From sequence record PZ445530.1: a stretch of DNA of 64,000 nucleotides. The stretch is one strand, 5' to 3'. Below, one piece after another: positions 605 to 63,892 of the stretch. The notes under the pieces were generated by a model. It ran no database searches and was not told the DNA's origin. It worked only from the letters and a program-made list of their open reading frames with translations. Source of the DNA: a phage. Made by a program: the position numbers and the translations under genes. How positions within the stretch are numbered: position 1 is the first letter of the stretch; the number at the start of each line of letters is the position of its first letter.

Positions 605-1387
605 GCATTAGGAGACAGCAAATTGAAATTTATCTACAAAGAACACTACCACAAAGGTGTTGTGTGGAGTCTATTTGACGGGTCTGGTGGTGCAGTCATT
701 GACTGGGCAAAAGCTGGGTACCTGTGCCTGTGCTTTAATGCAGAAGGCGCTGATCACGGCAGTTATGCAGAGGTGATCACCGATCATCCCAACATTCACT
801 ATGTGGACTATTGGATCGACCCGTGGTTCCCTCAGGAAACTTTTTGCATGTATCCGGCTCCAGATTTTATTCTTGCATTTCCTCCGTGCACGCATTTAGC
901 GGTATCAGGTGCTGCACATTTTAAGAAAAAGCTGGCTAAGGACCCCATGATCCAAATTAATGCTGTAAAGGATGCTCGGGTTGCGGAAGAGCTGGGAGAG
1001 ATTTACGATTGCCCGTGGCATGTAGAGAATCCTGTGGGTGTTATGTCCACACTGTGGCGCAAACCTGATTACCGTTTTCACCCTTCGGATTATGGCGGGT
1101 ATTTACCGGAAGATGATGTAAACCCATGGTTTCCTGAATTTATAGCTCCACGTGATGCCTATCCAAAAATAACTTGCGGCTGGATAGGTAATGGATTTAT
1201 AATCCCAGCCACAAAACCTGTCCCGCAAATAGTTGACGCGGTTAGCGGGTATTCCATGCAACACGCCAAGCTGGGTGGAAAGAGTGCAAGAACGAAGATG
1301 ATTCGAAGCCTCACACCACGTGGCTGGGCAAAAGCCGTATTCCTAGCAAACGAGCCTGTAGTAAGGAGCAGAATTAATGGGAAGTAA
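593..1387 (+). CDS. DNA cytosine-5 methyltransferase-like protein; true start probably near 623 because 593 lies inside the terminator hairpin
   Basis: motif I-like LFDGSGG, motif IV-like FPPCT (Pro-Cys), motif VI-like HVENPVGV; AGGAG SD at about 610. Confidence 0.4.
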   Translation: MGLFALGDSKLKFIYKEHYHKGVVWSLFDGSGGAVIDWAKAGYLCLCFNAEGADHGSYAEVITDHPNIHYVDYWIDPWFPQETFCMYPAPDFILAFPPCTHLAVSGAAHFKKKLAKDPMIQINAVKDARVAEELGEIYDCPWHVENPVGVMSTLWRKPDYRFHPSDYGGYLPEDDVNPWFPEFIAPRDAYPKITCGWIGNGFIIPATKPVPQIVDAVSGYSMQHAKLGGKSARTKMIRSLTPRGWAKAVFLANEPVVRSRINGK

Positions 1388-3455
1388 ATTTATGGCATCT
1401 GCATACAACCGTTTCGGTGAGCCAAACCCGAAAGCAACTAAGTATAAAAGTGGGGGAAGTGTGAAACGAGACTATCGTGATGAAAAAGAAGTTGAAACTG
1501 TAGAGACTGTTTTAGAAAATACTAAAATTGTCCCTGTCCCACAACAAAATATCGGTCTGATGGCTGCACAATATTTTGGTGTGCGATCAGCATTGTCACA
1601 AGAAGACGGTGTGACAGTCACTGCAACATATTTCCCATATTACGACCGCTACGGAAATCTGTCCGGTTTCAAAAAGCGTGACTGGACTATTCCTAAAGAA
1701 CAAAGGGGCCACTTCTCCGTTGTTGGCATCGTAAAGGCCAACTCCCAGATGTTTGGTCAAAAGCTGTGTGCATCTTCCAACAACCGTAAGCAGATTAACG
1801 TTTGTGAGGGGGAAGGTGATGTTATTGCAGCATGGCAGGCTGCATATCAGATACAAGTAAAAGGGATTCTCACCAACGCTAAAGCCCCGGCAAAGGTGAA
1901 GCAGTGGGCTAAAGAAGTCCAGGACGGGATCGATGCAGTTATCAACGGTGGTGATCTGGCAGGAAAACCATGCCTGCCTTTTGTTGGAATTAACTGTGGA
2001 TGTGCAAACGCAGTAGATACTTTTGCAAACAATGAGAAGTTTATCCGTAGCTATGGAACAGTTGTGCTGGCAATGGATAACGATGCAGCTAACGAGGTAG
2101 AGAAGCAAAAACACGTCATTAAAGGTGTTGAGGCCACGCACAATATCGCAGCATTTTTGATGGCTGATAACGTTTACCACGTAGAATACCCTGGTGAAGT
2201 AAACGACCCTGACGGTGTAAAAGATATCCGAGACATGCTGAAGGCTAAAAAGCTGGAAGATATTGTCAACATGTTCCGGCATCCTGTTAAATATGTGCCT
2301 GATGCGGTGTCGGATTTAGAAGACTTCTCTATCGAGTCTTTGCGGAAAAAGACTTCCAACGGGGTAGATATCAGCGCAGAGTTCCCAAAACTGCAAAAAA
2401 TGCTAAAAGGCTTGCACAAAGGGACACTCGTAATGCTTACAGGTCCATCAGGTGGCGGTAAAACAACCGTAGCTAAAAAACTGGAACACTGTATTGCAAG
2501 ATACCTAATGGACCCGACATGCCCGAAGGCTGATGACTATGAAGAGGATGATCGTCTATGTATGATCCATCTTGAGGAGGACCCAGAGGAAGCAATTAAC
2601 TCCTTGTATGCAAACCAGTTAGGGTTTGATGTTAAAGAGTTTGTTGAAGATCCTAGCCAGTTTTTAACTGATCAAGAACACGCAGAGATTCACCAATCAT
2701 GGGCAAAAGCTGGAAAAATCAAAGTGTTCAAACATTTCGGGTCTATTCCGGTGGATGAGTTGATTACCAAGCTTAAGCAAATGGTTTGCCTGTACCATTG
2801 CCGTTATATTGTGCTGGATCACCTGTCCATGGTAATTTCAGGGCTTAATGTTAAGGATGAGCGAAAAGAACTGGACATGGCTATGACTCAGCTGGCTGCG
2901 TTTTGTAAGCAGTTTAACGTGTTTATCTTGGTGATCGCTCACCTCAAACGTACAGAGATTGTGCCTCCTAAGGACAAGGATGGTAACCCGTTACCTTTCT
3001 GGTATCCTGTGCGAAAAGAGAATTTGCGAGGATCGGCGGGGCTTGAACAGTTGAGTTGGGTAGTCATAGGTGTCGAGGCCGAAGAAATGGTGGATCGTTC
3101 TCGTGGACGTGTCCGTCTGGTAGGTCTTAAAAACCGTCCAGCAAAAACTCTAGGTATTGCTGACACTTTGGTTATGGACCCGCACACAGGTAAGTTCCAT
3201 GATGCCAGTAATTGGTACTGGGACAAAGAAATGCAAATGTTTACAGACGGAGAAGGTGGGGAGGTTGTTTGGAGACCTCAGGCTATGTTTGAGGATCAGG
3301 AGCATGCAGTTGTAGAAACACCTATGGGCAAGGTTGTGGCTGATAAGGTTGTAACTCCTACTGTTAAGCCTGTTGACACGCAGGAAGACCTCCAGTACGA
3401 TGATCCGTCCTCTGACCATGTTCCTGGTTTTGAGGATGATGAAACACCTTTTTAA
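1377..3455 (+). CDS. bifunctional DNA primase-helicase (T7 gp4-like)
   Basis: TOPRIM-like CEGEGD; Walker A GPSGGGKTT; DnaB-like C-terminal half; acidic tail ending FEDDETPF. Confidence 0.8.
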   Translation: MGSKFMASAYNRFGEPNPKATKYKSGGSVKRDYRDEKEVETVETVLENTKIVPVPQQNIGLMAAQYFGVRSALSQEDGVTVTATYFPYYDRYGNLSGFKKRDWTIPKEQRGHFSVVGIVKANSQMFGQKLCASSNNRKQINVCEGEGDVIAAWQAAYQIQVKGILTNAKAPAKVKQWAKEVQDGIDAVINGGDLAGKPCLPFVGINCGCANAVDTFANNEKFIRSYGTVVLAMDNDAANEVEKQKHVIKGVEATHNIAAFLMADNVYHVEYPGEVNDPDGVKDIRDMLKAKKLEDIVNMFRHPVKYVPDAVSDLEDFSIESLRKKTSNGVDISAEFPKLQKMLKGLHKGTLVMLTGPSGGGKTTVAKKLEHCIARYLMDPTCPKADDYEEDDRLCMIHLEEDPEEAINSLYANQLGFDVKEFVEDPSQFLTDQEHAEIHQSWAKAGKIKVFKHFGSIPVDELITKLKQMVCLYHCRYIVLDHLSMVISGLNVKDERKELDMAMTQLAAFCKQFNVFILVIAHLKRTEIVPPKDKDGNPLPFWYPVRKENLRGSAGLEQLSWVVIGVEAEEMVDRSRGRVRLVGLKNRPAKTLGIADTLVMDPHTGKFHDASNWYWDKEMQMFTDGEGGEVVWRPQAMFEDQEHAVVETPMGKVVADKVVTPTVKPVDTQEDLQYDDPSSDHVPGFEDDETPF

Positions 3456-3513: not shown

Positions 3514-5937
3514 ATGAGCATGTGGTCGTTCGATTTTGAGTCATCCGGTTTGCTGGAAGACCCAGATCTTTATTATCACTGCGGCCTGTTTAAAGAGCTG
3601 AATAAGAACCGTTTTATGCTGTTCCTTCCTCTGAATGACCGCACACACTACTCCGAGGAGGATATAGAGAAGGCCAAGAACTTTATTCTGGCAAAGAAAA
3701 CTCTTTATAAGGATTTTGAAGTTCGCATAGCAGATTTTTCGGAGTTGGAAGGTTGGCTTACAGGAAATTCCGACTGGTCACCAACAGCTTTGAACTGCCA
3801 TAACTGCTACAGTTATGACTTTATGCTGATGGAGAGATTATCCGGTATTCATTTTGATATGTTCCGTGATCCTAAATGTATGGGGACTATCAACGACCAC
3901 CAGGTTAACCTGTTTGATACGTTGGCGATGAGCCGAATCTTGTGGCCTGATCGCCCTTTACCAAAAGGTTGTCCGGACTCCGTATTCAACCCGGTTACTA
4001 AGAAAATGCAGCCTGTTGGTCCTCACGGCCTTATGGCATGGGGCTACGCCCTTGGTAACCAGAAAGTTCAAATTGATGATTGGCGCGATCTTCCGTTGTG
4101 GAAGTATGTGGATCGTGTATTCGAGGACGTTATCATCCAGGAGCTACTCTGGAAAGAGCTGGTAGCGGAATCAAAAGGTGTATTCTACGGCAAATCTGAC
4201 ATGCAGAACTTTATGTACGATCCTGCCAAAGAGAAGCCGAAAGGGTTCAAGAAGATCACCTGGAAGAACGCATTGCGCCGGGGTATGCTGCAACACTTCC
4301 TGATGGAGCTGCAGGCCCGTCAGGGTGTGTATTTTGACATAGATGGAGCTATTGCTTTACGTGACCGTTGCGATGCGTGGATGAAAGAAATCGCTGATCG
4401 TGTTGAACCACAACTGCCTTTAAAAGAGCTGTCAATGTCTCAGCGGCCCAAGTTCCCTGAAAAGCCGTTTAACCAAGATGGGACAATCTCTAATAATGGT
4501 TGGAAATGGTTAAAAGATAAGCTTGGCTATCCTGTGGACATGAGTGCTTTAGAGTTCAAAGCCCCACCTAAGCGAGCATTTACCTCTACAGGAGATGTCA
4601 GTAAGATGGGGATAAAATGGTGTGAAGAGATGGGCTGCAAAGACCACGATAAGATGGCTGATTTCTTGAGAGGCTATATTAAGGGCACCTCCACACCACA
4701 ACCTTTACCTAAAGAGCTGATGGATCAGGCAATAAGCGATCTGCAGCAGAAGCGAATGCCTGACTGCAAGATACCTATGAAAATCAGCAATCAGGACGAT
4801 ATTAAGCGATACCTGATCAGTGCTGGTTGGCTTCCGACAATGTGGAGAACTAAGGATGTAACTAAAGACAGCAAGAAGAAAGCTTTACCTGATGCAGATG
4901 TTGATGCACGAGTATATGCATATATGGACGAGCTTTTGGAGTCAGAGTATTGTGACCTAATTATCAACTTCTGGAACAAAACTGATGCTAAGTTCCAGAC
5001 AACCGTGCACAAGTTCCGAAGCTTTCCTAACTCCGAAAGGATTAAAAAGGAAGTATTCGGGAAAATACGTAGAAAAGCTAGGGCACTTATTACTTCTCCG
5101 CAACTGAAAGATACGTTTGGACACCTGTGTCCGAATCTTGAAAAATTGAACGGAGAGATGGCTAAAGATATCGTCTTATGGTTATCATTGCGAAACCGCA
5201 GATCGGTACTTGATCCAATCAAGGAGGATAAGGTTGACACTGGTCTTCTTAATCACCCACGTTTGAAGATTGACCATAAGCTTCCTGCTAAAAGCTCTGG
5301 ATTAACAAACACTTCCAGACAGAAACACAGTATTTGTGCAAACATGCCTAAACCCTCTCCTAAAGTGGTTATGGGTAAAGAGATGCGTAGCTTGTGGGGT
5401 GTTCCTCCAGGATACTTTGAGATCGGTATCGACGGGTCCAACTTAGAGCAGCTTATCGGGGCTTGGGGTGCCTTTGAGTTCGACAACGGCCTGTATTACG
5501 ATGTTGTAAGTAACGGAGACGCACACCAAAACAATGCTGAGGCATATACAAAAGTAGCAGGCAGAGAGGTGTCCCGTAACGACGGTAAACCTATCACGTA
5601 TGGGGTTATGTACGGGGCACAAAAAGATAAAGTTGCAGATATGCTGGACATCTCTCCAGAGTTGGGACAAAGGGTAATCGATGCGCTTTGGGATGCCAAC
5701 CCTGGTCTTAAGGGCCGTAAAGAGGATCTGGAGAAATTCTGGGAAGCAACGGGTAAGAAGTTTATCTACTCTTTTGATGGTCATGCCATCTGGACCCGAT
5801 CTAAACACTCTTTACTTAATGCATACCAACAGAATGGTGGTGCATCGCTGTGTGACTTGGTTGGGATACTTATGCACCACCAAATGGTGAAGCGTGGGTG
5901 GTACGATGAAGGTGTTCGTCGTATTATCTATTACCAT
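3514..5937 (+). CDS. DNA polymerase family A, exon 1 (3'-5' exo domain plus polymerase motifs through motif B)
   Basis: exo motif FDFESSGL; motif B KPITYGVMYGAQ; frame ends ...IIYYH immediately before stop, where motif C HDE is expected. Confidence 0.8.
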
Positions 5938-6779
5938 AAATAACATTGTGGCTTCGTGCAGTGATGCACGTCGAAAACCTCTTTAATTGACGGGAAGGCT
6001 AAGTTGACTTTTACACCTAAACATGGTAAAAGCTCAATATGCTAATCCGCAGCGAAGACTAAAGGGGTGTAGTTAAAATGGCTAGATCAGTTGAGTATCA
6101 CGGATATACCGTGTTTGATGATGGAACAATACCTTTATCGAAACGTGATCATACAACAATGTTTTGTTTTGATAATGGTCGAGGTTACCTTTGCGTAACC
6201 ATGTTCATCGAGGGGAAGCAGTGCACAAAAGGTGTCCACCACTTGGTTGCTGAATGCTTTGTATCAAACCCTGATCCTGAAAGGCTCACATGGGTGAACC
6301 ATAAGGACGGAAACAAATACAACAATGCATACTGGAACCTTGAATGGACCACCCCTGGTGGAAATATCAAACACGCTTATGATAATGACCTCAGAGTAAG
6401 GCCAGTCGGTGAGTATAATGCCAACGCTGTACTGACCGAGGATGAGGTAACGGAGATTTGCGAACTGTTACAAAGTGGTTTACGACAATGCGAGATTAGG
6501 GATCTTGGGTATCCTTATGAGACGGTCAGAGCCATAAAGCAAAGAAGACAGTGGAAACATATCTCTAAAAACTACACCTGGTAGTAACGTTCAGAGACTA
6601 TCGAAAGCATAGCGCCAACATAAATTGGTGCGAAGAAGCGAGTAGAGTAGACCAGCAAGTGCGGTCGAAATGGGAGGTGCCTTGGTAACAAGGTAGTGAG
6701 ATAGTCCGATCCATACAGGAAACTGTATGGCTGTGCACGTAATGGTGCGGGGTAGCTTAACGACCTACCTGAACTATTG
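5938..6779 (+). mobile_element. group I self-splicing intron interrupting the DNA polymerase gene
   Basis: conserved core elements P (AATTGACGGGAAGG ~5985), Q (AATCCGCAGC ~6044), R (GTTCAGAGACTA ~6589), S (GAGATAGTCC ~6698); exon 1 ends in T, intron ends in G; exon frames differ. Confidence 0.7.
6078..6584 (+). CDS. intron-encoded HNH homing endonuclease
   Basis: NHKDGNKYNNAYWNLEW HNH motif; ORF nested between intron Q and R elements; own SD. Confidence 0.75.
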   Translation: MARSVEYHGYTVFDDGTIPLSKRDHTTMFCFDNGRGYLCVTMFIEGKQCTKGVHHLVAECFVSNPDPERLTWVNHKDGNKYNNAYWNLEWTTPGGNIKHAYDNDLRVRPVGEYNANAVLTEDEVTEICELLQSGLRQCEIRDLGYPYETVRAIKQRRQWKHISKNYTW

Positions 6780-9958: not shown

Positions 9959-10327
9959 ATGGAACAAATGAACGATCAAGCGTCGGTTGCGATGAACGAG
10001 CAAGAACAACCTCAAGAATTTTTCTTAGGGTTAAGTAAAGATCAAGTGTCTCTTCTGCTAGTGCTTTCTTCTTTCATGGGAAGACTTCAGGAGCTCACAC
10101 AACAGCCAGAGGCTGAACAATTATTTCAGGCTCTGCGTGAAGAAGAAAAATATCGTCGTTTGGACTATGCCTTGGGTTGGGTAGCTCAACAACGAGATAT
10201 GCTGATGGCCCTCTCTGGGACCACAAGTTTTGCAATGGGCCTGTTGGCTCAAGTTCAGGACAAATTAATTCAAGCAGGGTTTGCACACACGGCAAACACT
10301 AACGAAGAACAAGGAGACAAAGAATGA
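9959..10327 (+). CDS. hypothetical protein
   Basis: 122-aa ORF, SD CGGAGA. Confidence 0.5.
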   Translation: MEQMNDQASVAMNEQEQPQEFFLGLSKDQVSLLLVLSSFMGRLQELTQQPEAEQLFQALREEEKYRRLDYALGWVAQQRDMLMALSGTTSFAMGLLAQVQDKLIQAGFAHTANTNEEQGDKE

Positions 10328-11550
10328 GCGTTATTCAACAATTCGCTAACCCGATGAATCCGCGTGAAACTGTTTTACTGGCTCACGGCATGATTAAACG
10401 CGTCAGCATCAAGCCTATCAAAGGTGCTGATCCTACAACAGGTATTAAAACCACTGTGTGGCAAGGTAAGAAAATTGAGTCCAGCCACACCATCTCTTTA
10501 CTGATTTCTGAACTGGATTCCTCTGATAACCTACTTCAAGGTGGTGAAGAAGTTTGGATCAGTATGGGCGATAAGCTGCTTAAACCGGGTCATCAAGACT
10601 CTGTCTCTGTTAAAATTGATGACAAGTGGGAAACCGTAACGCCAGGATGGATCGTAAATATCCCTTTGAAGGCAAACGAGCATAACGGTAAGACCTACTA
10701 CAAAGGCTCACTGGCTAAGATGGTTAAGCTGGGTGCAGGAGAGGCTCCAGCAGCGACTCAGCAGCAAAAACAGCAACAAGGTGCACAATCACAAGGCCAG
10801 AAGCAGAAACCTCAGCAGAATGCCAATCAGGACGTTTTACGCATCTATGGTGATGTGACTCAGATTGTTGGCAACGTGGTTACTGTTAATGACCACAAGA
10901 TTGGCGAAGGTGCTATGGTTGTAACTGATGAGCAGCTTAAAGACCTGGTGGTAGGTGGTCGTGTTGCAGCCATTGTTGACAAAGACACCGGAAACATTAT
11001 CAGTGGTTTCAAAGCCTATCCTCCTAAGGCAGAGAACGGTACTCAAGGCTCTGGTGGCAAGCGTAAATCCTCTTACGACCCTATCGGTGTGGAAACGGGG
11101 CATAGCATCAATGCGTTGCAAATCATCCTGGATCGCGGGTTTAAGGTAGACGACCCACTAGGAGTGGCTAAAACACTACACGTAGTCACTATTGAGCTTA
11201 AGAAAGAGTATGCTCAAGCCACCAACCGAACTGAAGATGAAGTAGGTGCCAGTGTCGGTAATGCGGTGTTGAACGCTTGTCGCCGTATTGACAAGAAAAC
11301 GAAAGTTGATGATTTTGCAGCGGCAATTACTGCAGAAGCAAAAGATGTCTTGACTAATCTGGCTGAGCCGTTGTACGATTGGATCAAGAACGGTGCTGGG
11401 TCAACTGACCATCAAGAACCTCAGGCTGCCAAACAGGAAGCAGCTCCACAGCAAAACACTGTAGACGCTCCTCCTGTAAATGATGGGGAAGATGACCCGA
11501 TGGATCAGAATCCAGCACAGTACGCCTTTGATGATGACATCCCATTCTAA
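10324..11550 (+). CDS. putative single-stranded DNA-binding protein
   Basis: Q-rich linker and C-terminal acidic tail ...FDDDIPF identical in type to bacterial SSB tail; location in replication module. Confidence 0.45.
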   Translation: MSVIQQFANPMNPRETVLLAHGMIKRVSIKPIKGADPTTGIKTTVWQGKKIESSHTISLLISELDSSDNLLQGGEEVWISMGDKLLKPGHQDSVSVKIDDKWETVTPGWIVNIPLKANEHNGKTYYKGSLAKMVKLGAGEAPAATQQQKQQQGAQSQGQKQKPQQNANQDVLRIYGDVTQIVGNVVTVNDHKIGEGAMVVTDEQLKDLVVGGRVAAIVDKDTGNIISGFKAYPPKAENGTQGSGGKRKSSYDPIGVETGHSINALQIILDRGFKVDDPLGVAKTLHVVTIELKKEYAQATNRTEDEVGASVGNAVLNACRRIDKKTKVDDFAAAITAEAKDVLTNLAEPLYDWIKNGAGSTDHQEPQAAKQEAAPQQNTVDAPPVNDGEDDPMDQNPAQYAFDDDIPF

Positions 11551-11565
11551 CATCTAGTTAACATA

Positions 11566-11593
11566 GCCCTGCCCGAAAGGGTGGGGCATTTTT
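11566..11593 (+). terminator. rho-independent terminator
   Basis: same GCCCTGCCC-GAAA-GGGTGGGGC hairpin as at 578, followed by T-run. Confidence 0.6.
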
Positions 11594-11612
11594 GTATAAG
11601 GAGATCTGAAAA

Positions 11613-12029
11613 ATGACATTAGAAGATATCATTGTTAAACCTGAGAACTATGACCAATACAACCTGTCAACTCAATCTGTAGACCTTGGATGCGCCACAG
11701 TTAGTGCGTGGCTGGTTAACGGAAAAGAGCTGGACAAGTGCTTAGAAGCTCACATGTCTGTTAACAAGTTTCTGGATGAAAATACTCACTGGCTGGAAGG
11801 TGCAGGCGTATATGCTTCATGGTTGGAGAGCATGGGCTTTGACTATCAATCTGATGAAGGGTGGTGGAGCTATCTAGCTATCTGTCCAGAAACACGGCAA
11901 TGCTTCATGAAATACTCTGAAGATCTTGAGTACCGAGCGGTGGTTGATAGTGCTATTGCCCGTTATAGCCGTAAACCTTTTTCCCACGACATTAAAACTG
12001 TGGAAGAATTTGTTGAAGTTTTCTGTTGA
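11613..12029 (+). CDS. hypothetical protein
   Basis: 138-aa ORF, SD AAGGAG. Confidence 0.5.
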   Translation: MTLEDIIVKPENYDQYNLSTQSVDLGCATVSAWLVNGKELDKCLEAHMSVNKFLDENTHWLEGAGVYASWLESMGFDYQSDEGWWSYLAICPETRQCFMKYSEDLEYRAVVDSAIARYSRKPFSHDIKTVEEFVEVFC

Positions 12030-12125
12030 CACAGGTTGAAAGGTGTGCAATTATAACTTCATATAACGGGAGGACGCGATGAACGAAGAAAACTGGGATG
12101 TATAACTAACAGGAGGCCACTGCCC

Positions 12126-12323
12126 ATGATTTATCGAATCCGTGTAAGAGAAGATGCACCAGGCTGTTACTTTGACTGGCGTGGGTGGTGGTTTCTCCAC
12201 CCAATGGATGGACTCACAGATAGAATGCTGGATGCTGCCCTTTATACAGATACCGACATAGAATATAATCTCTATCTGAAGGACGGTATAGATAACGGTC
12301 TATTTGAAGCAATTCCTGTGTAA
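12126..12323 (+). CDS. hypothetical protein
   Basis: 65-aa ORF, SD AGGAGG. Confidence 0.45.
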   Translation: MIYRIRVREDAPGCYFDWRGWWFLHPMDGLTDRMLDAALYTDTDIEYNLYLKDGIDNGLFEAIPV

Positions 12324-12388
12324 GAGACTGTGATAGCCATGTTTTATGATCTTCCTGTAGCACCACCTGTTGAACCTAGAGAACTAAG

Positions 12389-12814
12389 ATGATCTATGAA
12401 ATGCCAAAACTGATTCGTGACGATGCCCAAAACGCTAACACCATTATTATGGGCAAACGCATGGATATTATTTGTCATAAAGATTTCTGGGAAGGGAGTT
12501 ACTTCACAGAGTATTTTGGTAAACTGGACAATGGTCTGCTGATCCAGTTCTACACCGATGCGGAAAACAATATCTGCTGGGAGTTCGAAACTGAAGATAT
12601 CCATAAACTTTTCACCTTCCTAGGTATTAAGGTTGAGGCCAAGTTCGAAGAAGGTGAGTGCGACGATTGTGGATTCTACGAGGTAACAGATTTCTATCTC
12701 CCAAGTGGTGAGAACCTTTACTATGAAAGCCACTTCGGTAACTCCAATATGCCACAGTGCTGGACTGAGTTTTTTGAAATTGCGGAAGAGGAGCTGGCAT
12801 ACCGTGATTATTGA
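12389..12814 (+). CDS. hypothetical protein
   Basis: 141-aa ORF. Confidence 0.5.
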   Translation: MIYEMPKLIRDDAQNANTIIMGKRMDIICHKDFWEGSYFTEYFGKLDNGLLIQFYTDAENNICWEFETEDIHKLFTFLGIKVEAKFEEGECDDCGFYEVTDFYLPSGENLYYESHFGNSNMPQCWTEFFEIAEEELAYRDY

Positions 12815-13262
12815 TACTGTAGAGGGAGATTTAATCTCCCTTTTTAAGAGCGGTGCTGGTCACCTGATCCACGGTTGTAACTGCTTCCACACAATGGGCA
12901 AGGGGATAGCAAAACAGATTTCCCGTGAGTTCCCTCAAGCATTGGCAGCTGACAAAGAGACTAGATATGGTTGCCTAAGTAAACTGGGTGCGTTCTCCCG
13001 ATGGGAGCACTTATCTCCGAGAGGTATTGTCTACGGAATCAATCTGTATACTCAGTTCTACCCAGGACCTAATGCTGAATATTTCTCAATTCTGAAAGGC
13101 TTTGAGCTAGTCAATGAGGTATTCAGTAGATCGACTTTACCATTCTACATCCCTAAGATCGGGTGCGGCATAGGCGGTTTGAAGTGGGAGCACGTAGAGG
13201 ACGTTATTAACCTTGCCACTTTTGATATGGATATTATCGTGGTAGACTACAAAAAGTGTTGA
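12804..13262 (+). CDS. macro-domain protein (ADP-ribose / Appr-1''-p processing), putative GTG start overlapping upstream stop
   Basis: VEGDLISLFKSGAGHLIHGCNCFHTMGKGIAKQI and IPKIGCGIGG resemble macro-domain motifs. Confidence 0.45.
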   Translation: MIIDTVEGDLISLFKSGAGHLIHGCNCFHTMGKGIAKQISREFPQALAADKETRYGCLSKLGAFSRWEHLSPRGIVYGINLYTQFYPGPNAEYFSILKGFELVNEVFSRSTLPFYIPKIGCGIGGLKWEHVEDVINLATFDMDIIVVDYKKC

Positions 13263-13315
13263 CAGCTGGTTTTTGGGATGGTGTAGTCACCACAACGATT
13301 GAGATAGGGAGCACT

Positions 13316-13486
13316 ATGGAGACTAAAATCTTAATTCTAGCTGTGATAGATACAACCGAAGGGGCTGTGTTCGAATCTGCAGGAGGGTATTTCTACCTAC
13401 CCTACGGAAAAAGAACTGCTGAACCAGGTAAAGATTCAATCATCAAAGTGTTCCCGTGTGCTTTCTGGCTGGAGATTTTGGTATAA
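13316..13486 (+). CDS. hypothetical protein
   Basis: ATG after GGGAG SD. Confidence 0.4.
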   Translation: METKILILAVIDTTEGAVFESAGGYFYLPYGKRTAEPGKDSIIKVFPCAFWLEILV

Positions 13487-13512
13487 GATTGCAGAGGATT
13501 TGGGAGAGAATT

Positions 13513-13707
13513 ATGAGAAACAAGAGAGAGCTTTACTCTGGCGAGTGGATAAACGATCAACAGGTTGGAGAGGTAACCTGCTTCCGGTGTTTTACTCGGT
13601 ACAATCTTAAAACTGCACCAAAAAGTATTCCAAAGACTGATGGTTATTACATAAAAGAACCTCATTGCCCGAAATGTAAATGCCGATTATACTGGAGCAA
13701 CCTGTAA
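13513..13707 (+). CDS. zinc-ribbon protein
   Basis: CFRC ... CPKCKC cysteine pairs; SD GGGAGAG. Confidence 0.45.
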   Translation: MRNKRELYSGEWINDQQVGEVTCFRCFTRYNLKTAPKSIPKTDGYYIKEPHCPKCKCRLYWSNL

Positions 13708-13770
13708 AAGATTGACATCTGAAAACTACAGTGTATAATATACGCACAGACTAACAGAGAGCGATGTATT

Positions 13771-13962
13771 ATGGTAATTTTTAACCGGGATGGTATCATA
13801 GTTAGACAGCACCCCTTCCTTGAATACTATCAAATTGAGCAATGGTGCTACGGGGATTGCAGTCACTCCTATGGGCAAAGTTGGGGATATCGCACAGTTT
13901 TTGAATCAACAGACCTTGACAAAGTAAGACAGAAAGTTTTAGAACTTATTAACAACAAGTGA
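13771..13962 (+). CDS. hypothetical protein
   Basis: 63-aa ORF. Confidence 0.4.
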   Translation: MVIFNRDGIIVRQHPFLEYYQIEQWCYGDCSHSYGQSWGYRTVFESTDLDKVRQKVLELINNK

Positions 13963-13971
13963 GTATGATAC

Positions 13972-14304
13972 ATGGTAACATTAGAAAGACGTAAAGCTAT
14001 CGCCGCCACACTGGCAGACATCTTTTGGGATTGCAACTTAAAAGATACCCGAAATTGTGGCGCATCTGTAGATGTATTATTCCCACGGCCCACCATTGTT
14101 GCAATGGGAAACCTGTTAAACGTAGTGTACGGAGCATGGGACAAAGAAGGTGGATTCTATATCTGGCAACCTGACTACGGAGCCTGGAAAGAGGTAAGGG
14201 GTGCGGATGACTTTGGGCCTACAGTTGCTAAGATGGATGGCTGGGAAATTTATGTTGGAAACGACATGAAGCTGAAAGGCGAGATTGTTTACTGGTTACC
14301 TTAA
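13972..14304 (+). CDS. hypothetical protein
   Basis: 110-aa ORF. Confidence 0.5.
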   Translation: MVTLERRKAIAATLADIFWDCNLKDTRNCGASVDVLFPRPTIVAMGNLLNVVYGAWDKEGGFYIWQPDYGAWKEVRGADDFGPTVAKMDGWEIYVGNDMKLKGEIVYWLP

Positions 14305-14324
14305 GAAAGTGCAGGAGATAAAGT

Positions 14325-14570
14325 ATGAACAAAGGGTGGACATTTGTAGACGGCGTTAAAAACATGCCTCTAGGAAAGTATATCGTAGCCATGGCTGATG
14401 AGGATGGCAATGTAGATTTCGGAGCTTGCGAGGTTGTTCTTGCAGGATCTGGTAACTATGTGAGTAAAACCGGGATAATTAACGGTCAGTTCTACTTTGA
14501 TCACAACCCTGTTGTAGCGTATATGACTATGCCAGAGTTCAAGTTCCCAAAGGAGGGTGCAGATGTTTAA
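14325..14570 (+). CDS. hypothetical protein
   Basis: 81-aa ORF, SD AGGAGA. Confidence 0.5.
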   Translation: MNKGWTFVDGVKNMPLGKYIVAMADEDGNVDFGACEVVLAGSGNYVSKTGIINGQFYFDHNPVVAYMTMPEFKFPKEGADV

Positions 14571-58399: not shown

Positions 58400-58668
58400 T
58401 ACTCGGCCTCTTCCTTAAAAATTTTAAACATCTCTTCTTTACTCATTACCAACCAGTCTCCCATAAAGTCAACTAGCCAATCCCCCTGGTACAAGACAAG
58501 GTTACCAAAAGGCTCGACAAGCTCACACATGCGACGAAGATCTCTGGTCCGAACAGGTGACGATGTAAACACACCTGTATCAATCCACCGTTGCAGATCA
58601 GATACTGATGAAGAGCTTCCGTCAAACTGATGTGCTTCTACAGGTTTAGCAAGATTAAATAACGGCAT
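58399..58668 (-). CDS. hypothetical protein
   Basis: 89-aa ORF. Confidence 0.45.
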   Translation of the reverse strand: MPLFNLAKPVEAHQFDGSSSSVSDLQRWIDTGVFTSSPVRTRDLRRMCELVEPFGNLVLYQGDWLVDFMGDWLVMSKEEMFKIFKEEAE

Positions 58669-58963
58669 TGCAGTCCTCCTTCTGTAGTAGGTCTTTTATA
58701 GGATAAACAAGTAAGTGTGGGTCGTAATAACGTATAGTCCTATTCTGCCACACTATGAACTTTATTACAACCAAATTTACAATATCTTTATCACCATGTA
58801 GCCCAACACACACATTTGTCCATATTTTGTGGTTGAAGACCTTGCTATCGATGTAGATTTTAGTGTCAAACTTATCTTCCATTCTACCAATAAGTTTGAT
58901 CAGCTCCTTCATCTGGTCGCCAAACACAGCATCTTTTTCAAGATCTCTGGAATGCTTGTACAT
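58655..58963 (-). CDS. hypothetical protein
   Basis: 102-aa ORF. Confidence 0.45.
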   Translation of the reverse strand: MYKHSRDLEKDAVFGDQMKELIKLIGRMEDKFDTKIYIDSKVFNHKIWTNVCVGLHGDKDIVNLVVIKFIVWQNRTIRYYDPHLLVYPIKDLLQKEDCNAVI

Positions 58964-59025
58964 AACTGACTACCTCACTGCATACTTTCCATAATAAGTA
59001 AAGCCGGGTAATCCCGGCTATGTTG

Positions 59026-59739
59026 TTAAATATACTCTGTTACATCCTTGAAGCTCGAAGGCTTCATAATCTTACCTTTACTGTCAAGGAATATAATAAC
59101 TTTATTGCCGTTGTAGAACTCCTCTTTAGCAACGAAACCTTCGTAGCGACCACCAAAACGACGCTCAAGATCTTTAATCTCCAACTCGATGAGTTGTTCA
59201 GCAGGCATATCTGCACTGGCACCGTGTGAATGCCGTAGATGGTTGATCCGTGCAAACTTACTGTCATTAGATTTTAGAACCTTCCGCATCATCCCACACA
59301 CATCCCCGCTAAGCTGGAACAGCAAAGCTGTTGATAACTCCGCTAGTCGGTAAGCTGACGCTCTTTGCTTGGATGTGTTTTTCGCAGCGATCAGTGTATC
59401 ATAGAACTCACCGATCTTGAACTTAAGACCTCGCGGATTATCAAACAGGTTTGACCACTTTTCGTGGTTATCATTAACAAGATAAGCTGCATAACTTGTG
59501 ACAACGTGAAGATCGCAGGCCTCTTTTAGCAGGTGATCTCCACCATCACCTTTCTCCAGCTCTTCCAAAACCTCATTGAACTCTTCCTCAATGAAGCTAA
59601 GCTGTAATTCGAATGGTGTGTATGATTTTTTCACTTTAGCTGCCACACGGTTCCAGTTTTCCACCCAGTTGGCAGACCAAAGGTAGTTTTCAGGCTGGGA
59701 CAGTTTTTCCAGGTTGTCGATCAGTTTAGTATTCAGCAT
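59026..59739 (-). CDS. hypothetical protein (weak MazG-like EExxE...E..D pattern)
   Basis: IEEEFNEVLEELEKGDGGDHLL. Confidence 0.35.
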   Translation of the reverse strand: MLNTKLIDNLEKLSQPENYLWSANWVENWNRVAAKVKKSYTPFELQLSFIEEEFNEVLEELEKGDGGDHLLKEACDLHVVTSYAAYLVNDNHEKWSNLFDNPRGLKFKIGEFYDTLIAAKNTSKQRASAYRLAELSTALLFQLSGDVCGMMRKVLKSNDSKFARINHLRHSHGASADMPAEQLIELEIKDLERRFGGRYEGFVAKEEFYNGNKVIIFLDSKGKIMKPSSFKDVTEYI

Positions 59740-59752
59740 TAAAGGTCTCCTT

Positions 59753-60286
59753 TTAAAGTTCCATAAAGTTTTCTACAGTTTCAATAAATGCTTTATCAGA
59801 GAAAGCGTCAACAGCACCGTTAAACCATACAGGGATCCCGCGATCCTCATATTGATAAAGGTCGCTACGTGAAATGCCACTTCCATCTGCACTCTGCGAA
59901 TCATACTTGTTTACAATCAGCAGTTTTGTGCCTTTACAAGTAGCAGGAAACAATTCCCAGTTAAAATTAATAACTGTGTTAGAACAACCTACCAGGATCA
60001 CCATATCATTGCTTGTGAGAGATGTCAACAGGTCATACATGTCTGTATACTTAGGAGCAACCTCACCGAAGAACACTACATTGGGCTTAACCCAGGTATA
60101 CTTGCCTGTATCTACCTCCGTGTATCCGATATTTTTAATTACATCATTACCTTCAGCATCTTCGTAGGTGATTTCAGGCAAATACCCGTGGACATGTAAA
60201 ATATCTTCATGTTTTACACCAGCACGCTCCAGCAAATCATCTACATTGGTAGTAAGGTTGATCACACGACCAGACCAGCGGGTCAT
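59753..60286 (-). CDS. Sir2-like (sirtuin-fold) protein, apparently lacking the N-terminal NAD-binding GAGIS region and the Zn-binding cysteines
   Basis: NVDDLLERAG, ILHVHG, KPNVVFFGE, MVILVGCSNTV match sirtuin motifs QNID.LH.RAG / LHG / RP.VV.FGE / LV(I/V)GTS. Confidence 0.45.
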   Translation of the reverse strand: MTRWSGRVINLTTNVDDLLERAGVKHEDILHVHGYLPEITYEDAEGNDVIKNIGYTEVDTGKYTWVKPNVVFFGEVAPKYTDMYDLLTSLTSNDMVILVGCSNTVINFNWELFPATCKGTKLLIVNKYDSQSADGSGISRSDLYQYEDRGIPVWFNGAVDAFSDKAFIETVENFMEL

Positions 60287-60791
60287 GGAGTTTGATTCAT
60301 GTCAAAAACACAGATCTCAGTATGATCACAATCTTGACAGTATGAATGCGGGAATCATCGCCGAGTGGAACTCTGTTGTGTCACCTGCAGACACTGTGTT
60401 CCACTTGGGAGATATTGCGTGCACTAATGATAAGAATATCAACAACTTACTTCCAGATATTCTAAATATGTTGAACGGACATATTATTCTTGTTCGTGGC
60501 AACCATGACACAAGGACGACTGTCAGAATTATGAAAGAGTTCGGTCATGAGGTTGTAGATTATTACGAGCTTCGCCACAACAAGAATTTAATCTGTATGA
60601 GCCATTACCAGTTTGCAAAGTGGAACAGAAAGCCTCACGGATCAGTCCAACTGTTCGGTCATGCTCACGGAACCACACAACAGTTGTTTGGCAGGCAGCT
60701 TGATGTCGGTTGGGATGTGTGGGGGAGACTCTTACCATTAGAAGAGGCATACCGTATTGCAATGAGTTTTGATATTGACAGCAGGGAGTAA
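60285..60791 (+). CDS. metallophosphoesterase-like protein, N-terminal metal-binding motif I absent or degenerate
   Basis: IAEWNSVVSPADTVFHLGDIA (motif II), LVRGNHD (motif III), GHAHG; start abuts the Sir2-like start codon on the other strand. Confidence 0.45.
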   Translation: MEFDSCQKHRSQYDHNLDSMNAGIIAEWNSVVSPADTVFHLGDIACTNDKNINNLLPDILNMLNGHIILVRGNHDTRTTVRIMKEFGHEVVDYYELRHNKNLICMSHYQFAKWNRKPHGSVQLFGHAHGTTQQLFGRQLDVGWDVWGRLLPLEEAYRIAMSFDIDSRE

Positions 60792-60838
60792 TCCCTGCTA
60801 TTTTAAAGAAAATTGCCACACAAGGAGAATCAGGAGAT

Positions 60839-61189
60839 ATGAAAGATGGGGATAAGCTGCTATATCTTAAAGTCCCCCTTGAAATACTATCTATGTCAAA
60901 AGTTTTGAATGACACAACTGGGGAGGTTGTTGTTCTTGACTTGTATGACAAGATCGTATACTGCTACCTGCACAACTGGTATAAGCTTGGAGGAAATTCA
61001 CGCTTCACACCAAGCACAAGGAAAATTGCAGCAGATGTTGGGATAAAGAAAACAAAAGCAGCAGCGTGCGTTAAAACTTTAGAATGTGCAGGAGTGGTTG
61101 AAACATCCACACAAGGGAGAGGTAAAAGATGCACATTTTCCAAAGTTTTGCCACCAGAAGAAGTTATTCGGATGTCAACAACTGGTTAG
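60839..61189 (+). CDS. helix-turn-helix DNA-binding protein
   Basis: STRKIAADVGIKKTKAAACVKTLECAGVV HTH-like segment; SD AGGAGA; immediately upstream of palindromic operator array. Confidence 0.5.
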   Translation: MKDGDKLLYLKVPLEILSMSKVLNDTTGEVVVLDLYDKIVYCYLHNWYKLGGNSRFTPSTRKIAADVGIKKTKAAACVKTLECAGVVETSTQGRGKRCTFSKVLPPEEVIRMSTTG

Positions 61190-61264
61190 ACCAGTAAAAA
61201 CTTAAATATCTGTACTATAAGGATTCGTATGTTTTATGTTCGCCATGGAACGGATACTATTAAC

Positions 61265-61345
61265 TGTCCGTGATACGGACACTACTGTCCGTCACGCGGA
61301 CACATCTGCCCGTAATACGGACACTAACTGTCCGTGATACGGACA
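61265..61345. promoter_or_regulatory. array of four 17-bp palindromic sites TGTCCGT-N3-ACGGACA at 21-22 bp spacing
   Basis: copies at ~61265, ~61286, ~61307, ~61329; copies 1 and 4 perfect. Confidence 0.6.
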
Positions 61346-61349
61346 CATA

Positions 61350-61480
61350 AAGAATATAACTAAAATAACTAAATAATAAAAAATAAAAGATCTAGTACTT
61401 ATGGTACTAAGTACATATACTTAACTTATGTAGAATATACTAGATCCTAAGTACCATGTTTTAAATTTATTACTTACTAT
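61350..61480. repeat. AT-rich region with palindromes (GTACTTA...TAAGTAC)
   Basis: lies between operator array and GC-rich element. Confidence 0.4.
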
Positions 61481-61484
61481 GGGC

Positions 61485-61750
61485 AGTGTCGGCCCTTCAT
61501 TGGCACTCGCCTACGAGGGGCGAGATGCCGGGCCTCCTTGGTGCACACAATAACAGAAGTTCATACATGCAGGTCTGTTAACATGTGTGGGAGCGAAGCG
61601 ATAGCGCAGGCCAAAGGCCGAGCACTGATGTGGACCACCGACGAAAGCTTGCCAGCGCCGTAAGGAGTCGGTTGAGAGTCTCCCGCGCGAGCTTGGATGA
61701 AGTTTATGTGTGGAAACTGACAAGAAGGCCCCTAAATCGCTCCACAGCTA
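61485..61750 (+). ncRNA. candidate structured non-coding RNA (GC-rich island, unknown family)
   Basis: marked local GC excess, long imperfect hairpin ~61491-61534, no credible ORF on either strand. Confidence 0.25.
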
Positions 61751-63726: not shown

Positions 63727-63801
63727 GCCCTGTTAGCTTAGTGGATAAAGCAGCGGCCTTCTAAGCCGTTGACACTGGTTCGAGTCCAGTACGGGGTGCC
63801 A
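63727..63801 (+). tRNA. tRNA-Arg (anticodon TCT), CCA encoded
   Basis: cloverleaf folded by hand: 7-bp acceptor, GCTT/AAGC D-stem, anticodon loop CTTCTAA, T-arm ACTGG-TTCGAGT-CCAGT. Confidence 0.75.
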
Positions 63802-63805
63802 AATT

Positions 63806-63892
63806 GGGGAGTTATCCCGTAGAGGTAGCGGTGTAGACTGTAAATCTATTGTCATTACGACTCGGGTGGTTCGACTCCACCACTTCCCACCA
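63806..63892 (+). tRNA. tRNA-Tyr (anticodon GTA), long variable arm, CCA encoded
   Basis: anticodon stem-loop GTAGA-CTGTAAA-TCTAT, T-arm GGTGG-TTCGACT-CCACC; close to E. coli tRNA-Tyr through anticodon and variable arms. Confidence 0.75.

What the first reader, a model, noticed from the sequence alone, without database searches (positions are those of the whole stretch)
12804..13262. Macro-domain protein in the replication module, with a Sir2-like protein elsewhere in the genome
The protein has macro-domain-like glycine-rich motifs (GAGHLIHGCNCFHTMGKGIAKQI, IPKIGCGIGG). Macro domains hydrolyse ADP-ribose adducts and O-acetyl-ADP-ribose, the latter being the product of sirtuins, and a Sir2-like gene lies at 59753..60286. 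Carrying both suggests the phage manipulates NAD+/ADP-ribose signalling, which is relevant to NAD-depleting or ADP-ribosylating host defences.
Basis: partly seen in the sequence, partly recalled or inferred. Interest (0 to 1): 0.55.

Follow-up and report, generated by a model that had tools for sequence, protein, structure and literature searches.

The report
Phage macrodomain, likely anti-DarT2 eraser
The ORF is a real, conserved macro-domain gene of an rV5-like E. coli phage and a homologue of phage T4 Tk.4/AdfM, which protects T4 from the DNA-ADP-ribosylating DarTG2 defence; the "Sir2 partner" in this genome is only the broken remnant of an unrelated RNA-repair cassette, so the finding is real but ordinary.

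Summary
The window is a Vequintavirus (rV5-like E. coli myophage). ORF 12804..13262 (+, GTG start, 152 aa) is a genuine macrodomain. It scores 27.5 bits on Pfam Macro (cut-off 22) and 2.7e-59 on PHROG 335, and the AlphaFold2 model has pLDDT 96. Its nearest solved folds are TARG1, Poa1p, DarG, BT1257 and SCO6735, all of the ALC1-like class.

It is 40% identical over its full length to T4 Tk.4. A 2025 preprint named Tk.4 AdfM because deleting it sensitises T4 to DarTG2. The only defence-system model it matches is DarG, and only the macro part.

The family has an invariant Asn26/Gln84 pair. Gln84 occupies the position of the DarG/TARG1 catalytic lysine, as in SCO6735, which cleaves thymidine-linked ADP-ribose from DNA.

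Near-identical genes are already annotated as "macro domain protein" or "tk.4 phosphatase".

The Sir2 link fails. ORF 59753..60286 is a 5'-truncated remnant left by a 2,087-bp microhomology deletion. That deletion removed most of a sirtuin/cREC/RNA-ligase/kinase/phosphoesterase RNA-repair cassette. T5 has this Sir2 but no macro homologue.

Verdict: already known, low interest.

The parts
12804..13262 (+). Macro-domain gene (152 aa, GTG start), a homologue of T4 tk.4/adfM. Key residues are His23, Asn26, the Gly32-x-Gly34 loop, Asn80-x3-Gln84 and Gly120-x-Gly122-x-Gly124-Gly125.
12784..12793 (+). Purine-rich Shine-Dalgarno-like stretch GGAAGAGGAG, 10 nt upstream of the GTG start. It lies inside the 3' end of the upstream ORF (12389..12814), so translational coupling is likely.
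   Evidence: Read directly from the sequence. Relatives annotate the same start.
12026..12054 (+). Candidate sigma-70-type promoter (TTGACA-17-AATTAT with extended -10 TG). It follows a terminator-like hairpin at 11566..11587 and may start the transcription unit that contains the macro gene. This is a consensus match only.
59753..60286 (-). 5'-truncated Sir2 remnant (177 aa). It equals residues 77-253 of the intact 253-aa Vequintavirus sirtuin. The catalytic HG motif is present, the N-terminal NAD-binding segment is absent, and the start codon was created by the deletion junction.
60274..60282 (.). Junction of a 2,087-bp deletion relative to phage I29. The 9-bp microhomology ACCAGCGGG is present once here and twice in I29. 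None of about 120 database relatives carries the junction. The identical junction occurs in two independent public assemblies.
60285..60791 (+). 5'-truncated calcineurin-like phosphoesterase. It lacks the first 15 codons (MKYFVTSDTHFLHQR), which include the D-x-H metal-binding motif.
59026..59739 (-). Intact gene annotated as nucleotide pyrophosphohydrolase (MazG-like) in RefSeq phage Murica. It is the last surviving gene of the sirtuin operon and has no Pfam hit here.

Best explanation
The gene encodes a stand-alone ALC1/TARG1/DarG-like macrodomain hydrolase, the Vequintavirus counterpart of T4 Tk.4 (AdfM, 'anti-DarT factor macro').

Proposed mechanism:
1. It is probably made early, from host-type promoters.
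2. It binds ADP-ribose attached by the host toxin DarT2 to thymidines in single-stranded phage DNA.
3. It hydrolyses the base-ribose bond, releasing ADP-ribose and restoring replicable DNA. It thus acts as an orphan 'antitoxin' against DarTG2.

Catalysis is predicted to be lysine-independent. Gln84, held in place by Asn26, positions the distal ribose and a water molecule, as shown for SCO6735. DarG Lys80 and TARG1 Lys84 are not used.

What is shown: fold, class, homology to Tk.4, residue conservation and purifying selection. What is inferred: the substrate (T-linked ADPr-DNA), the anti-DarTG2 role in this phage, the Gln mechanism and the expression timing.
For: 1. Homology to Tk.4. The protein is 40% identical and 66% similar to T4 Tk.4 over 150 of 152 residues, and the two have the same length. 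RefSeq phage V5 names the gene 'tk.4'.
2. Function of Tk.4. A T4 tk.4 knockout becomes sensitive to DarTG2, and the protein was named AdfM (preprint 10.1101/2025.11.20.689424). A chimallivirus macrodomain AdfM removes DarT2 ADP-ribose from DNA in vitro (PMC13309987).
3. Similarity to DarG. The best single-sequence PDB hit is the M. tuberculosis DarG macrodomain, at 2.2e-7. NCBIfam's best model is DarG. DarG is the only PADLOC defence model matched, at 5e-14 and over the macro part only; T4 Tk.4 matches the same model at 1.3e-9.
4. Active-site residues. In 60 homologues including Tk.4, G24, N26, G34, A36, N80, Q84, P117 and G120 are invariant. Q84 aligns with DarG K80, TARG1 K84 and SCO6735 Gln85. 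SCO6735 cleaves thymidine-linked ADPr-DNA faster than DarG or TARG1. Its Q85A mutant is dead and its N27S mutant nearly so (PMC9411070).
5. Structure. The AF2 model has pLDDT 96.2, and its top folds are TARG1, Poa1p, DarG, BT1257 and SCO6735.
6. Selection. dN/dS is 0.12-0.35.
7. Correlation with sensitivity. T5, which is DarTG2-sensitive, has no homologue.
8. Lineage context. Some Vequintavirinae also carry a NADAR AdfN against DarTG1, so anti-DarT erasers are already known in this subfamily.
Against: - No experiment exists for any Vequintavirus copy.
- The T4 result is genetic and comes from a preprint. No biochemistry has been reported for the Gln-type phage family.
- At 40% identity, substrate specificity may differ.
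- The catalytic lysine of DarG is absent. The SCO6735 'mobile loop', which is 5 residues longer, is also absent. Neither characterised mechanism therefore transfers cleanly.
- Similarity to Poa1p, TARG1 and BT1257 is about as strong as to DarG.
- The protein lacks DarG's DarT-binding C-terminal domain.
Confidence: 0.6

Rival explanations
1. It is a Poa1p-like ADP-ribose-1''-phosphate (or ADPr>P) processing enzyme. In this reading it cleans up the by-product of a KptA-like 2'-phosphotransfer carried out by the phage sirtuin in the Rnl1/cREC/kinase/phosphoesterase RNA-repair pathway.
For: - Yeast Poa1p is among the best sequence and fold matches, at 2.4e-13 for the profile and 3.5e-10 in Foldseek.
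- PHROG and several GenBank records call the family 'phosphatase' or 'Poa1p-like'.
- The HxCNC motif is shared with Poa1p.
- Iyer et al. predict that the V5 sirtuin generates ADPr>P during RNA repair.
Against: - The gene is about 47 kb from the cassette and in a different transcription block.
- Iyer et al. note that this sirtuin clade is not coupled to Macro.
- T5 has the sirtuin without a macro homologue. T4 has the macro homologue, and no T4-like phage appears in the Sir2 hit sample.
- In this genome, and in two public assemblies, the cassette is destroyed while the macro ORF remains intact.
- The T4 orthologue's phenotype is DarTG2-specific.
Confidence: 0.1
2. The macro is an O-acetyl-ADP-ribose deacetylase working downstream of the phage Sir2 deacetylase, and together they re-wire NAD+/ADP-ribose signalling.
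For: - Some GenBank records label it 'O-acetyl-ADP-ribose deacetylase'.
- TARG1/OARD1, a structural neighbour, deacetylates OAADPr in vitro (PDB name, plus established knowledge).
- Intact Vequintaviruses carry both genes.
Against: - The Sir2 here is a truncated, promoter-less remnant.
- The two genes are not linked and do not co-vary between phages.
- The protein is not MacroD/YmdB-like: no MacroD-type chain passed E 0.01 in the profile search.
- TARG1's Lys84/Asp125 dyad is replaced by Gln84/Gly124.
- The sirtuin's genomic context points to RNA repair rather than protein deacetylation.
Confidence: 0.05
3. It is a broader or different ADP-ribose eraser. Candidate substrates are ADP-ribose on RNA (uracil- or mRNA-linked, CmdT-like toxins), on proteins (host or phage ARTs), or an NAD-derived immune signal.
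For: - ALC1-like macrodomains are promiscuous. SCO6735 also removes Glu-linked protein ADPr.
- Recent papers report reversible RNA ADP-ribosylation involving this enzyme class (titles and abstracts).
- Iyer et al. argue that phage Macro domains mainly target soluble ADPr derivatives.
Against: - The only functional datum for this orthologous group is DarTG2-specific.
- DarG is the sole defence-system model matched.
- No ART gene was identified next to the macro gene.
Confidence: 0.2

Closest known systems
T4 Tk.4 = AdfM (anti-DarT factor macro; HIDEN-SEQ preprint 10.1101/2025.11.20.689424)
   Same: It is a stand-alone macrodomain of about 150 aa, 40% identical across the full length. It shares the HGCNCFHTMG and NLYTQFxPGPN motifs, including the invariant Asn/Gln pair. 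Both genes sit among small accessory ORFs.
   Different: The lineage is different (Vequintavirinae rather than Tevenvirinae) and so are the neighbouring genes. The second glycine loop is GCGIGGLKW here and GAGIGKGNW in T4. This copy has not been tested.
DarG2 antitoxin macrodomain (M. tuberculosis 5M3I, T. aquaticus 5M31/5M3E) and chimallivirus AdfM (PhiKZ gp104)
   Same: Same fold and ALC1-like class. The Asn equivalent to DarG N22 and the GxGxGGLxWExVE loop are conserved. DarG is the best single-sequence PDB hit and the best NCBIfam and PADLOC model.
   Different: The catalytic Lys80 (Lys78 in PhiKZ) is Gln here. There is no DarT-binding C-terminal domain and no adjacent darT. The score is 47.8 bits against the 250-bit equivalog cut-off.
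SCO6735 / BT1257 subgroup of ALC1-like macrodomains (5E3B, 2FG1)
   Same: It shares the His...Asn...Gln active-site signature, with Gln at the Lys position. These are the top profile hits, at 4e-17 to 9.5e-17. SCO6735 hydrolyses thymidine-linked ADPr-DNA through a lysine-independent mechanism.
   Different: The loop after the Gln is about 5 residues shorter here (QFYPGPNAEY against QHGMKTGSKGAPVRY). Sequence identity is only about 23%. The SCO6735/BT1257 proteins are bacterial housekeeping proteins, not phage proteins.
Phage V5-type sirtuin RNA-repair neighbourhood (Iyer, Burroughs, Aravind 2022, PMC9503650)
   Same: In intact relatives the Sir2 gene sits with a T4-like RNA ligase 1, a cREC, a P-loop kinase, a MazG-like pyrophosphatase and a calcineurin-like phosphoesterase, exactly as that paper describes.
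   Different: In this window 2,087 bp of the cassette are deleted. That removes the Sir2 N-terminus, cREC, Rnl1, the kinase and the phosphoesterase N-terminus, leaving only remnants and the MazG-like gene.

Membership tests
Macro domain superfamily (Pfam PF01661) | Profile score above Pfam's gathering threshold | tested here: met
   27.5 bits against a cut-off of 22, E 3.1e-6
Macro domain superfamily (Pfam PF01661) | Three-layer alpha/beta/alpha macro fold with glycine-rich phosphate-binding loops | tested here: met
   The AF2 model has pLDDT 96.2 and pTM 0.91. Foldseek probability is 1.0 and TM 0.74-0.85 to TARG1, DarG and Poa1p. The GKG (32-34) and GCGIGG (120-125) loops are present.
ALC1/TARG1/DarG-like macrodomain class | The nearest sequence and structure neighbours belong to this class rather than to the MacroD, PARG or viral nsp3 types | tested here: met
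   The profile-vs-PDB top 15 are BT1257, SCO6735, DarG, TARG1 and Poa1p, at 4e-17 to 1.7e-10. TTHA0132 (2dx6) follows at 3e-5, nsp3 macros score only 7e-3, and no MacroD/YmdB chain is listed. Foldseek gives the same order.
AdfM, T4 Tk.4 type | Full-length homology to T4 Tk.4 with the same conserved core residues | tested here: met
   40% identity over 150 of 152 aa, E 3e-42 pairwise. tblastn retrieves T4 tk.4. The invariant N26 and Q84 are shared. RefSeq V5 names the gene tk.4.
AdfM, T4 Tk.4 type | Needed for phage growth on DarTG2 hosts, and removes DarT2-made ADP-ribose from DNA | not testable with these tools
   This needs plaque assays and de-ADP-ribosylation assays. It is reported only for T4 (genetics) and PhiKZ-type AdfM (biochemistry).
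DarG antitoxin (NCBIfam NF048014 equivalog) | Score above the equivalog cut-off and a two-domain architecture (macro plus DarT-binding C-terminal domain) | tested here: not met
   47.8 bits against a cut-off of 250. Only profile positions 3-138 of 338 are matched, and the protein is 152 aa. PADLOC DarG positions 4-141 of 329 are matched.
DarG antitoxin (NCBIfam NF048014 equivalog) | Catalytic lysine (Lys80) after the beta-strand ending in ...PTK | tested here: not met
   The aligned residue is Gln84 (LYTQ against FPTK). There is no Lys anywhere in residues 61-97. Gln is invariant in 60 homologues.
DarG antitoxin (NCBIfam NF048014 equivalog) | Encoded next to a darT toxin gene | tested here: not met
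   The neighbours are small hypothetical phage ORFs, and no ART is annotated in the relatives' flanks.
SCO6735-type lysine-independent DNA ADP-ribosyl hydrolases | Gln at the Lys position, positioned by a conserved Asn (SCO6735 Gln85/Asn27), plus a conserved Gly in the second loop | tested here: met
   Q84, N26 and G120/G122/G125 align with the NMIGQ, CN and GCGLAGG motifs of SCO6735 and BT1257. Residue roles are taken from PMC9411070.
SCO6735-type lysine-independent DNA ADP-ribosyl hydrolases | Extended 'mobile loop' (5 residues longer than in DarG/TARG1) after the Gln | tested here: not met
   HMM alignments need a 5-6-residue insertion in SCO6735 and BT1257 relative to the phage profile.
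MacroD/YmdB-type O-acetyl-ADP-ribose deacetylases | Closest similarity to MacroD-type enzymes and their catalytic motif set | tested here: not met
   No MacroD/YmdB chain appears among PDB profile hits at E<=0.01 or in the Foldseek top 50.
Poa1p-like ADP-ribose-1''-phosphate phosphatases | Similarity to Poa1p including its active-site His/Ser region | tested here: inconclusive
   Poa1p scores E 2.4e-13 (profile) and 3.5e-10 (Foldseek). ILIHSCNCNGSWGGG aligns with HLIHGCNCFHTMGKG, so the His is kept and Ser becomes Thr. The enzymatic test cannot be run here.
Sir2/sirtuin (Pfam PF02146), for ORF 59753..60286 | Complete Rossmann-type NAD-binding domain including the N-terminal GAGxS...GIPxFR segment | tested here: not met
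   Only model positions 79-178 of 180 are matched. Residues 1-76 of the intact 253-aa protein are absent from the whole window.

The most novel reading that the evidence does not exclude
The T4/rV5-type AdfM proteins (about 2,800 phage records) may form a mechanistically distinct, lysine-independent (Asn/Gln, SCO6735-like) subclass of anti-DarT2 erasers. This subclass would be separate from the Lys-type AdfM of chimalliviruses and from DarG itself, and it could have a broader substrate range, such as T-linked DNA plus U-linked RNA or protein ADP-ribose. A single small gene would then blunt several ADP-ribosylating defences. The papers read here do not mention the Lys-to-Gln difference for the phage family.
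Probability: 0.3. Interest if true: 0.45.

Novelty: already known. Interest (0 to 1): 0.2.

Why it matters
If the assignment holds, rV5-like phages carry an enzymatic counter-defence against DarTG2, a toxin-antitoxin defence also found in pathogenic E. coli. These phages are often considered for E. coli O157 and UPEC control, so this would be useful for predicting host range. The correction also has practical value. In this genome there is no macro/Sir2 'NAD signalling pair'. The sirtuin belongs to a separate RNA-repair cassette, and this isolate has lost most of that cassette. Such a variant should be more vulnerable to anticodon-nuclease-type defences.

Tried and rejected
1. I tested whether the translationally coupled upstream 141-aa ORF (12389..12814) is a conserved partner of the macro gene. 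Homologues exist only in Vequintavirus and Krischvirus (177 records). In Krischvirus PHB13 the homologue sits next to a DNA methyltransferase, not next to a macro gene. I dropped this lead.
2. I looked for the missing Sir2 N-terminus and for a second macro gene elsewhere in the window. Neither is present.
3. I considered whether the Sir2 could be a defence-type NADase like ThsA or DSR. It matches no PADLOC model.
4. I considered assembly collapse as the cause of the 2,087-bp gap. This is unlikely. The repeat is only 9 bp, and the identical junction is found in two independent public assemblies.
I repeated it without that row.
6. The HIDEN-SEQ supplements do not label a macro gene for Bas54, so I obtained no direct essentiality value for the orthologue.
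7. I did not run the 1.84-billion-protein representative search or a metagenome scan. They would not change the verdict.

Full report
**What the window is.** Megablast of 11500..14500 finds 120 phage records at 90-97% identity, and 116 of them cover at least 80% of the query. Nearly all are Vequintavirus (rV5-like E. coli myophages). Some are deposited as 'Campylobacter phage' records. Several of these records already annotate the ORF under study as 'macro domain protein', 'O-acetyl-ADP-ribose deacetylase' or 'phosphatase'. RefSeq phage V5 names the gene 'tk.4: phosphatase'.

**Checking the observation.**
- The ORF lies at 12804..13262 on the + strand (152 aa). The start is GTG, preceded by GGAAGAGGAG at 12784..12793. 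It overlaps the stop of the upstream ORF (12814) by 11 nt.
- Relatives annotate the same 459-nt gene with the same GTG start.
- Pfam Macro scores 27.5 bits against a cut-off of 22. PHROG 335 gives 2.7e-59.
- An AlphaFold2 model built on 59 homologues has mean pLDDT 96.2.
- Foldseek against the PDB returns TARG1 (2.9e-10), Poa1p, T. aquaticus and M. tuberculosis DarG, BT1257 and SCO6735, all at probability 1.0.
- dN/dS against three Vequintavirus orthologues is 0.12-0.35, so the gene is under purifying selection.

The macro-domain observation is confirmed.

**Which kind of macrodomain it is.**
- The best single-sequence PDB hit is the M. tuberculosis DarG macrodomain (5M3I, 2.2e-7).
- A profile of 60 homologues hits BT1257 (4e-17), SCO6735 (9.5e-17), Mtb DarG (7.3e-16), TARG1 (2.5e-14), Taq DarG (3e-14) and Poa1p (2.4e-13). 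Coronavirus nsp3 macros score only 7e-3, and no MacroD/YmdB chain appears.
- The protein therefore belongs to the ALC1/TARG1/DarG-like class, not to the MacroD deacetylase class.
- NCBIfam's best model is the DarG equivalog, at 47.8 bits against a 250-bit cut-off and over the macro part only.
- PADLOC's only hit is DarG (5e-14), again over the macro part only.
- It is not a DarG. It has no C-terminal DarT-binding domain, no neighbouring darT, and no catalytic lysine.

**The link to a characterised protein.** tblastn finds homologues in 2,822 phage records, including T4-like, Felix O1-like, PB1-like and others. The T4 hit is gene tk.4. The two proteins are 40% identical and 66% similar over 150 residues and have the same length. 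A 2025 preprint found tk.4 as the single T4 gene conditionally required on DarTG2 hosts. It confirmed this with a clean knockout and named the protein AdfM. Independently, chimallivirus macrodomains such as PhiKZ gp104 were also named AdfM and shown to remove DarT2-made ADP-ribose from DNA. Their active-site residues are N23 and K78. The best-supported function here is therefore an orphan eraser of thymidine-linked DNA ADP-ribosylation that counters DarTG2.

**Mechanistic detail.**
- In the 60-sequence alignment, which includes T4 Tk.4, the residues G24, N26, G34, A36, N80, Q84, P117 and G120 are invariant.
- HMM alignments place Q84 (LYTQ) opposite DarG K80 (FPTK), TARG1 K84 (ITKK) and SCO6735 Gln85 (MIGQ). 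They place N26 opposite DarG N22 and SCO6735 Asn27.
- SCO6735 lacks the lysine yet cleaves T-linked ADPr-DNA faster than DarG or TARG1. Q85A abolishes this activity and N27S nearly abolishes it (PMC9411070).
- The phage family therefore carries the SCO6735-type Asn/Gln signature. It lacks SCO6735's 5-residue-longer mobile loop.
- I infer a lysine-independent, water-mediated hydrolysis. This is an inference, not a demonstration.

**The Sir2 half of the finding.**
- ORF 59753..60286 (-) hits Pfam SIR2 only over model positions 79-178 of 180 and PHROG 2162 only over positions 95-270 of 277.
- Megablast of 58500..61500 breaks at window 60282 in all 122 matching records. The sequence to the right maps about 2 kb further away in every relative.
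- Alignment with phage I29 shows a 2,087-bp deletion between two copies of ACCAGCGGG, which remains as one copy at 60274..60282.
- The deletion removes five things: Sir2 residues 1-76, including the GAGLS...GIPTFR segment; a cREC_REC protein; RNA ligase 1; an AAA_33 kinase; and the first 15 codons of a calcineurin-like phosphoesterase, including its DTH motif. It also removes the divergent promoter region between the two operons.
- The remnant's ATG is the reverse complement of CAT at 60284..60286, bases that come from the phosphoesterase side of the junction, so the deletion created this start codon.
- The missing N-terminus is nowhere else in the window.
- The identical junction occurs in two independent public assemblies, ERR14020395 and ERR16009830. 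The deletion is therefore a real allele and not an assembly artefact.
- In Bas54 all the affected genes tolerate transposon insertions, which fits their dispensability in laboratory hosts.

**Whether macro and Sir2 are functionally coupled.**
- Iyer, Burroughs and Aravind (2022) described exactly this phage V5 neighbourhood: sirtuin, T4-like RNA ligase, cREC, kinase, MazG and calcineurin-like phosphoesterase. They predicted an RNA-repair system in which the sirtuin acts like KptA, and they noted that it is not coupled to a Macro gene.
- The Sir2 family occurs in 1,023 phage records, prominently T5-like phages.
- T5 has a 57%-identical Sir2 (T5.102) but no macro homologue by tblastn (best E 2.4) or by profile HMM (no hit at E<=10). 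T5 is DarTG2-sensitive.
- T4 carries Tk.4. That T4 encodes no sirtuin is my own knowledge and was not tested here. The weak supporting evidence is that no T4-like phage appears in the 40-row spread sample of the Sir2 hits.
- The Vequintavirus Sir2 matches no defence-type Sir2 model.
- The two genes lie about 47 kb apart, in different blocks.

The proposed OAADPr coupling is therefore not supported. A weaker variant of the idea is that the macro processes ADPr-1''-P or ADPr>P produced by a KptA-like sirtuin reaction. This cannot be excluded, because the protein resembles Poa1p, but the distribution data argue against it.

**Genomic context.** By synteny with AlexBoehm, the macro gene lies about 5.7 kb downstream of the end of the DNA polymerase gene. 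The window has matching 692-aa (1377..3455) and 809-aa (3514..5943) ORFs at the expected positions on the same strand. The gene sits within a long run of small ORFs of unknown function. A terminator-like hairpin at 11566..11587 and a sigma-70-like promoter at 12026..12054 may delimit its transcription unit. These are consensus matches only. The upstream, translationally coupled 141-aa ORF is not a conserved partner.

**Verdict.** The gene is the Vequintavirus homologue of T4 AdfM, and the likely target is DarTG2. The Sir2 partnership is not supported. In this genome the Sir2 is a broken remnant of an RNA-repair cassette.

The gene is already annotated in more than 100 near-identical genomes, and its family has a published functional assignment, so novelty is low. 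Two modest points may be new. First, the T4/rV5-type AdfM family has an invariant Gln in place of the DarG catalytic Lys. Second, this isolate carries a microhomology deletion of the sirtuin/RNA-ligase cassette.

Noticed in passing
window 60274..60282 (junction); affects 59753..60791: A 2,087-bp deletion relative to phage I29, between 9-bp direct repeats ACCAGCGGG. None of about 120 database Vequintaviruses carries this junction. It removes the Sir2 N-terminus, a cREC protein, RNA ligase 1, a P-loop kinase, the phosphoesterase N-terminus and the divergent promoter region. The same junction is present in Logan assemblies ERR14020395 and ERR16009830.
   Followed up: yes
window 5928..6729 (+), with ORF 6078..6584: The DNA polymerase ORF (3514..5943, 809 aa) stops prematurely. 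Rfam detects a complete group I intron here (RF00028, 39.1 bits, E 4.3e-8, below the gathering score of 50). The intron carries a 168-aa ORF, whose counterpart in AlexBoehm is annotated 'putative homing endonuclease'. AlexBoehm annotates its polymerase as joined from two pieces.
   Followed up: partly
window 10324..11550 (+): A 408-aa protein (PHROG 4477, no Pfam hit) has a Gln-rich linker and ends in ...DDDIPF. That hexapeptide matches the C-terminal protein-recruiting tip of E. coli SSB (my own knowledge). This suggests a phage SSB-like protein or a mimic that competes for SSB-interacting host proteins. A strong terminator-like hairpin follows at 11566..11587.
   Followed up: no
window 13712..13739 (+): A perfect sigma-70 consensus promoter (TTGACA-16-TATAAT, 12/12 matches) lies about 450 bp downstream of the macro gene's stop, in front of the next run of small ORFs. 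This fits host-RNA-polymerase (early) transcription of this block.
   Followed up: no
window 63727..63892 (+): Two adjacent tRNA genes, Arg(TCT) and Tyr(GTA), mark the start of the Vequintavirus tRNA cluster seen in phage Murica.
   Followed up: no
L004 (rV5_ev147) 1501..1959 compared with window 12804..13262: The macro allele of rV5_ev147 is only 78% identical in DNA and 80% in protein (dS about 1). In other relatives, such as BP9 and AlexBoehm, the macro gene is 95-98% identical in DNA. This suggests divergent macro alleles exist within the genus, possibly through allelic exchange; the rV5_ev147 flanks were not compared.
   Followed up: partly
one search hit list (MG0656xx records): About 16-18 GenBank records labelled 'Campylobacter phage' (host C. 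jejuni) are 97% identical to this E. coli Vequintavirus. They are probably mislabelled or contaminant assemblies.
   Followed up: no
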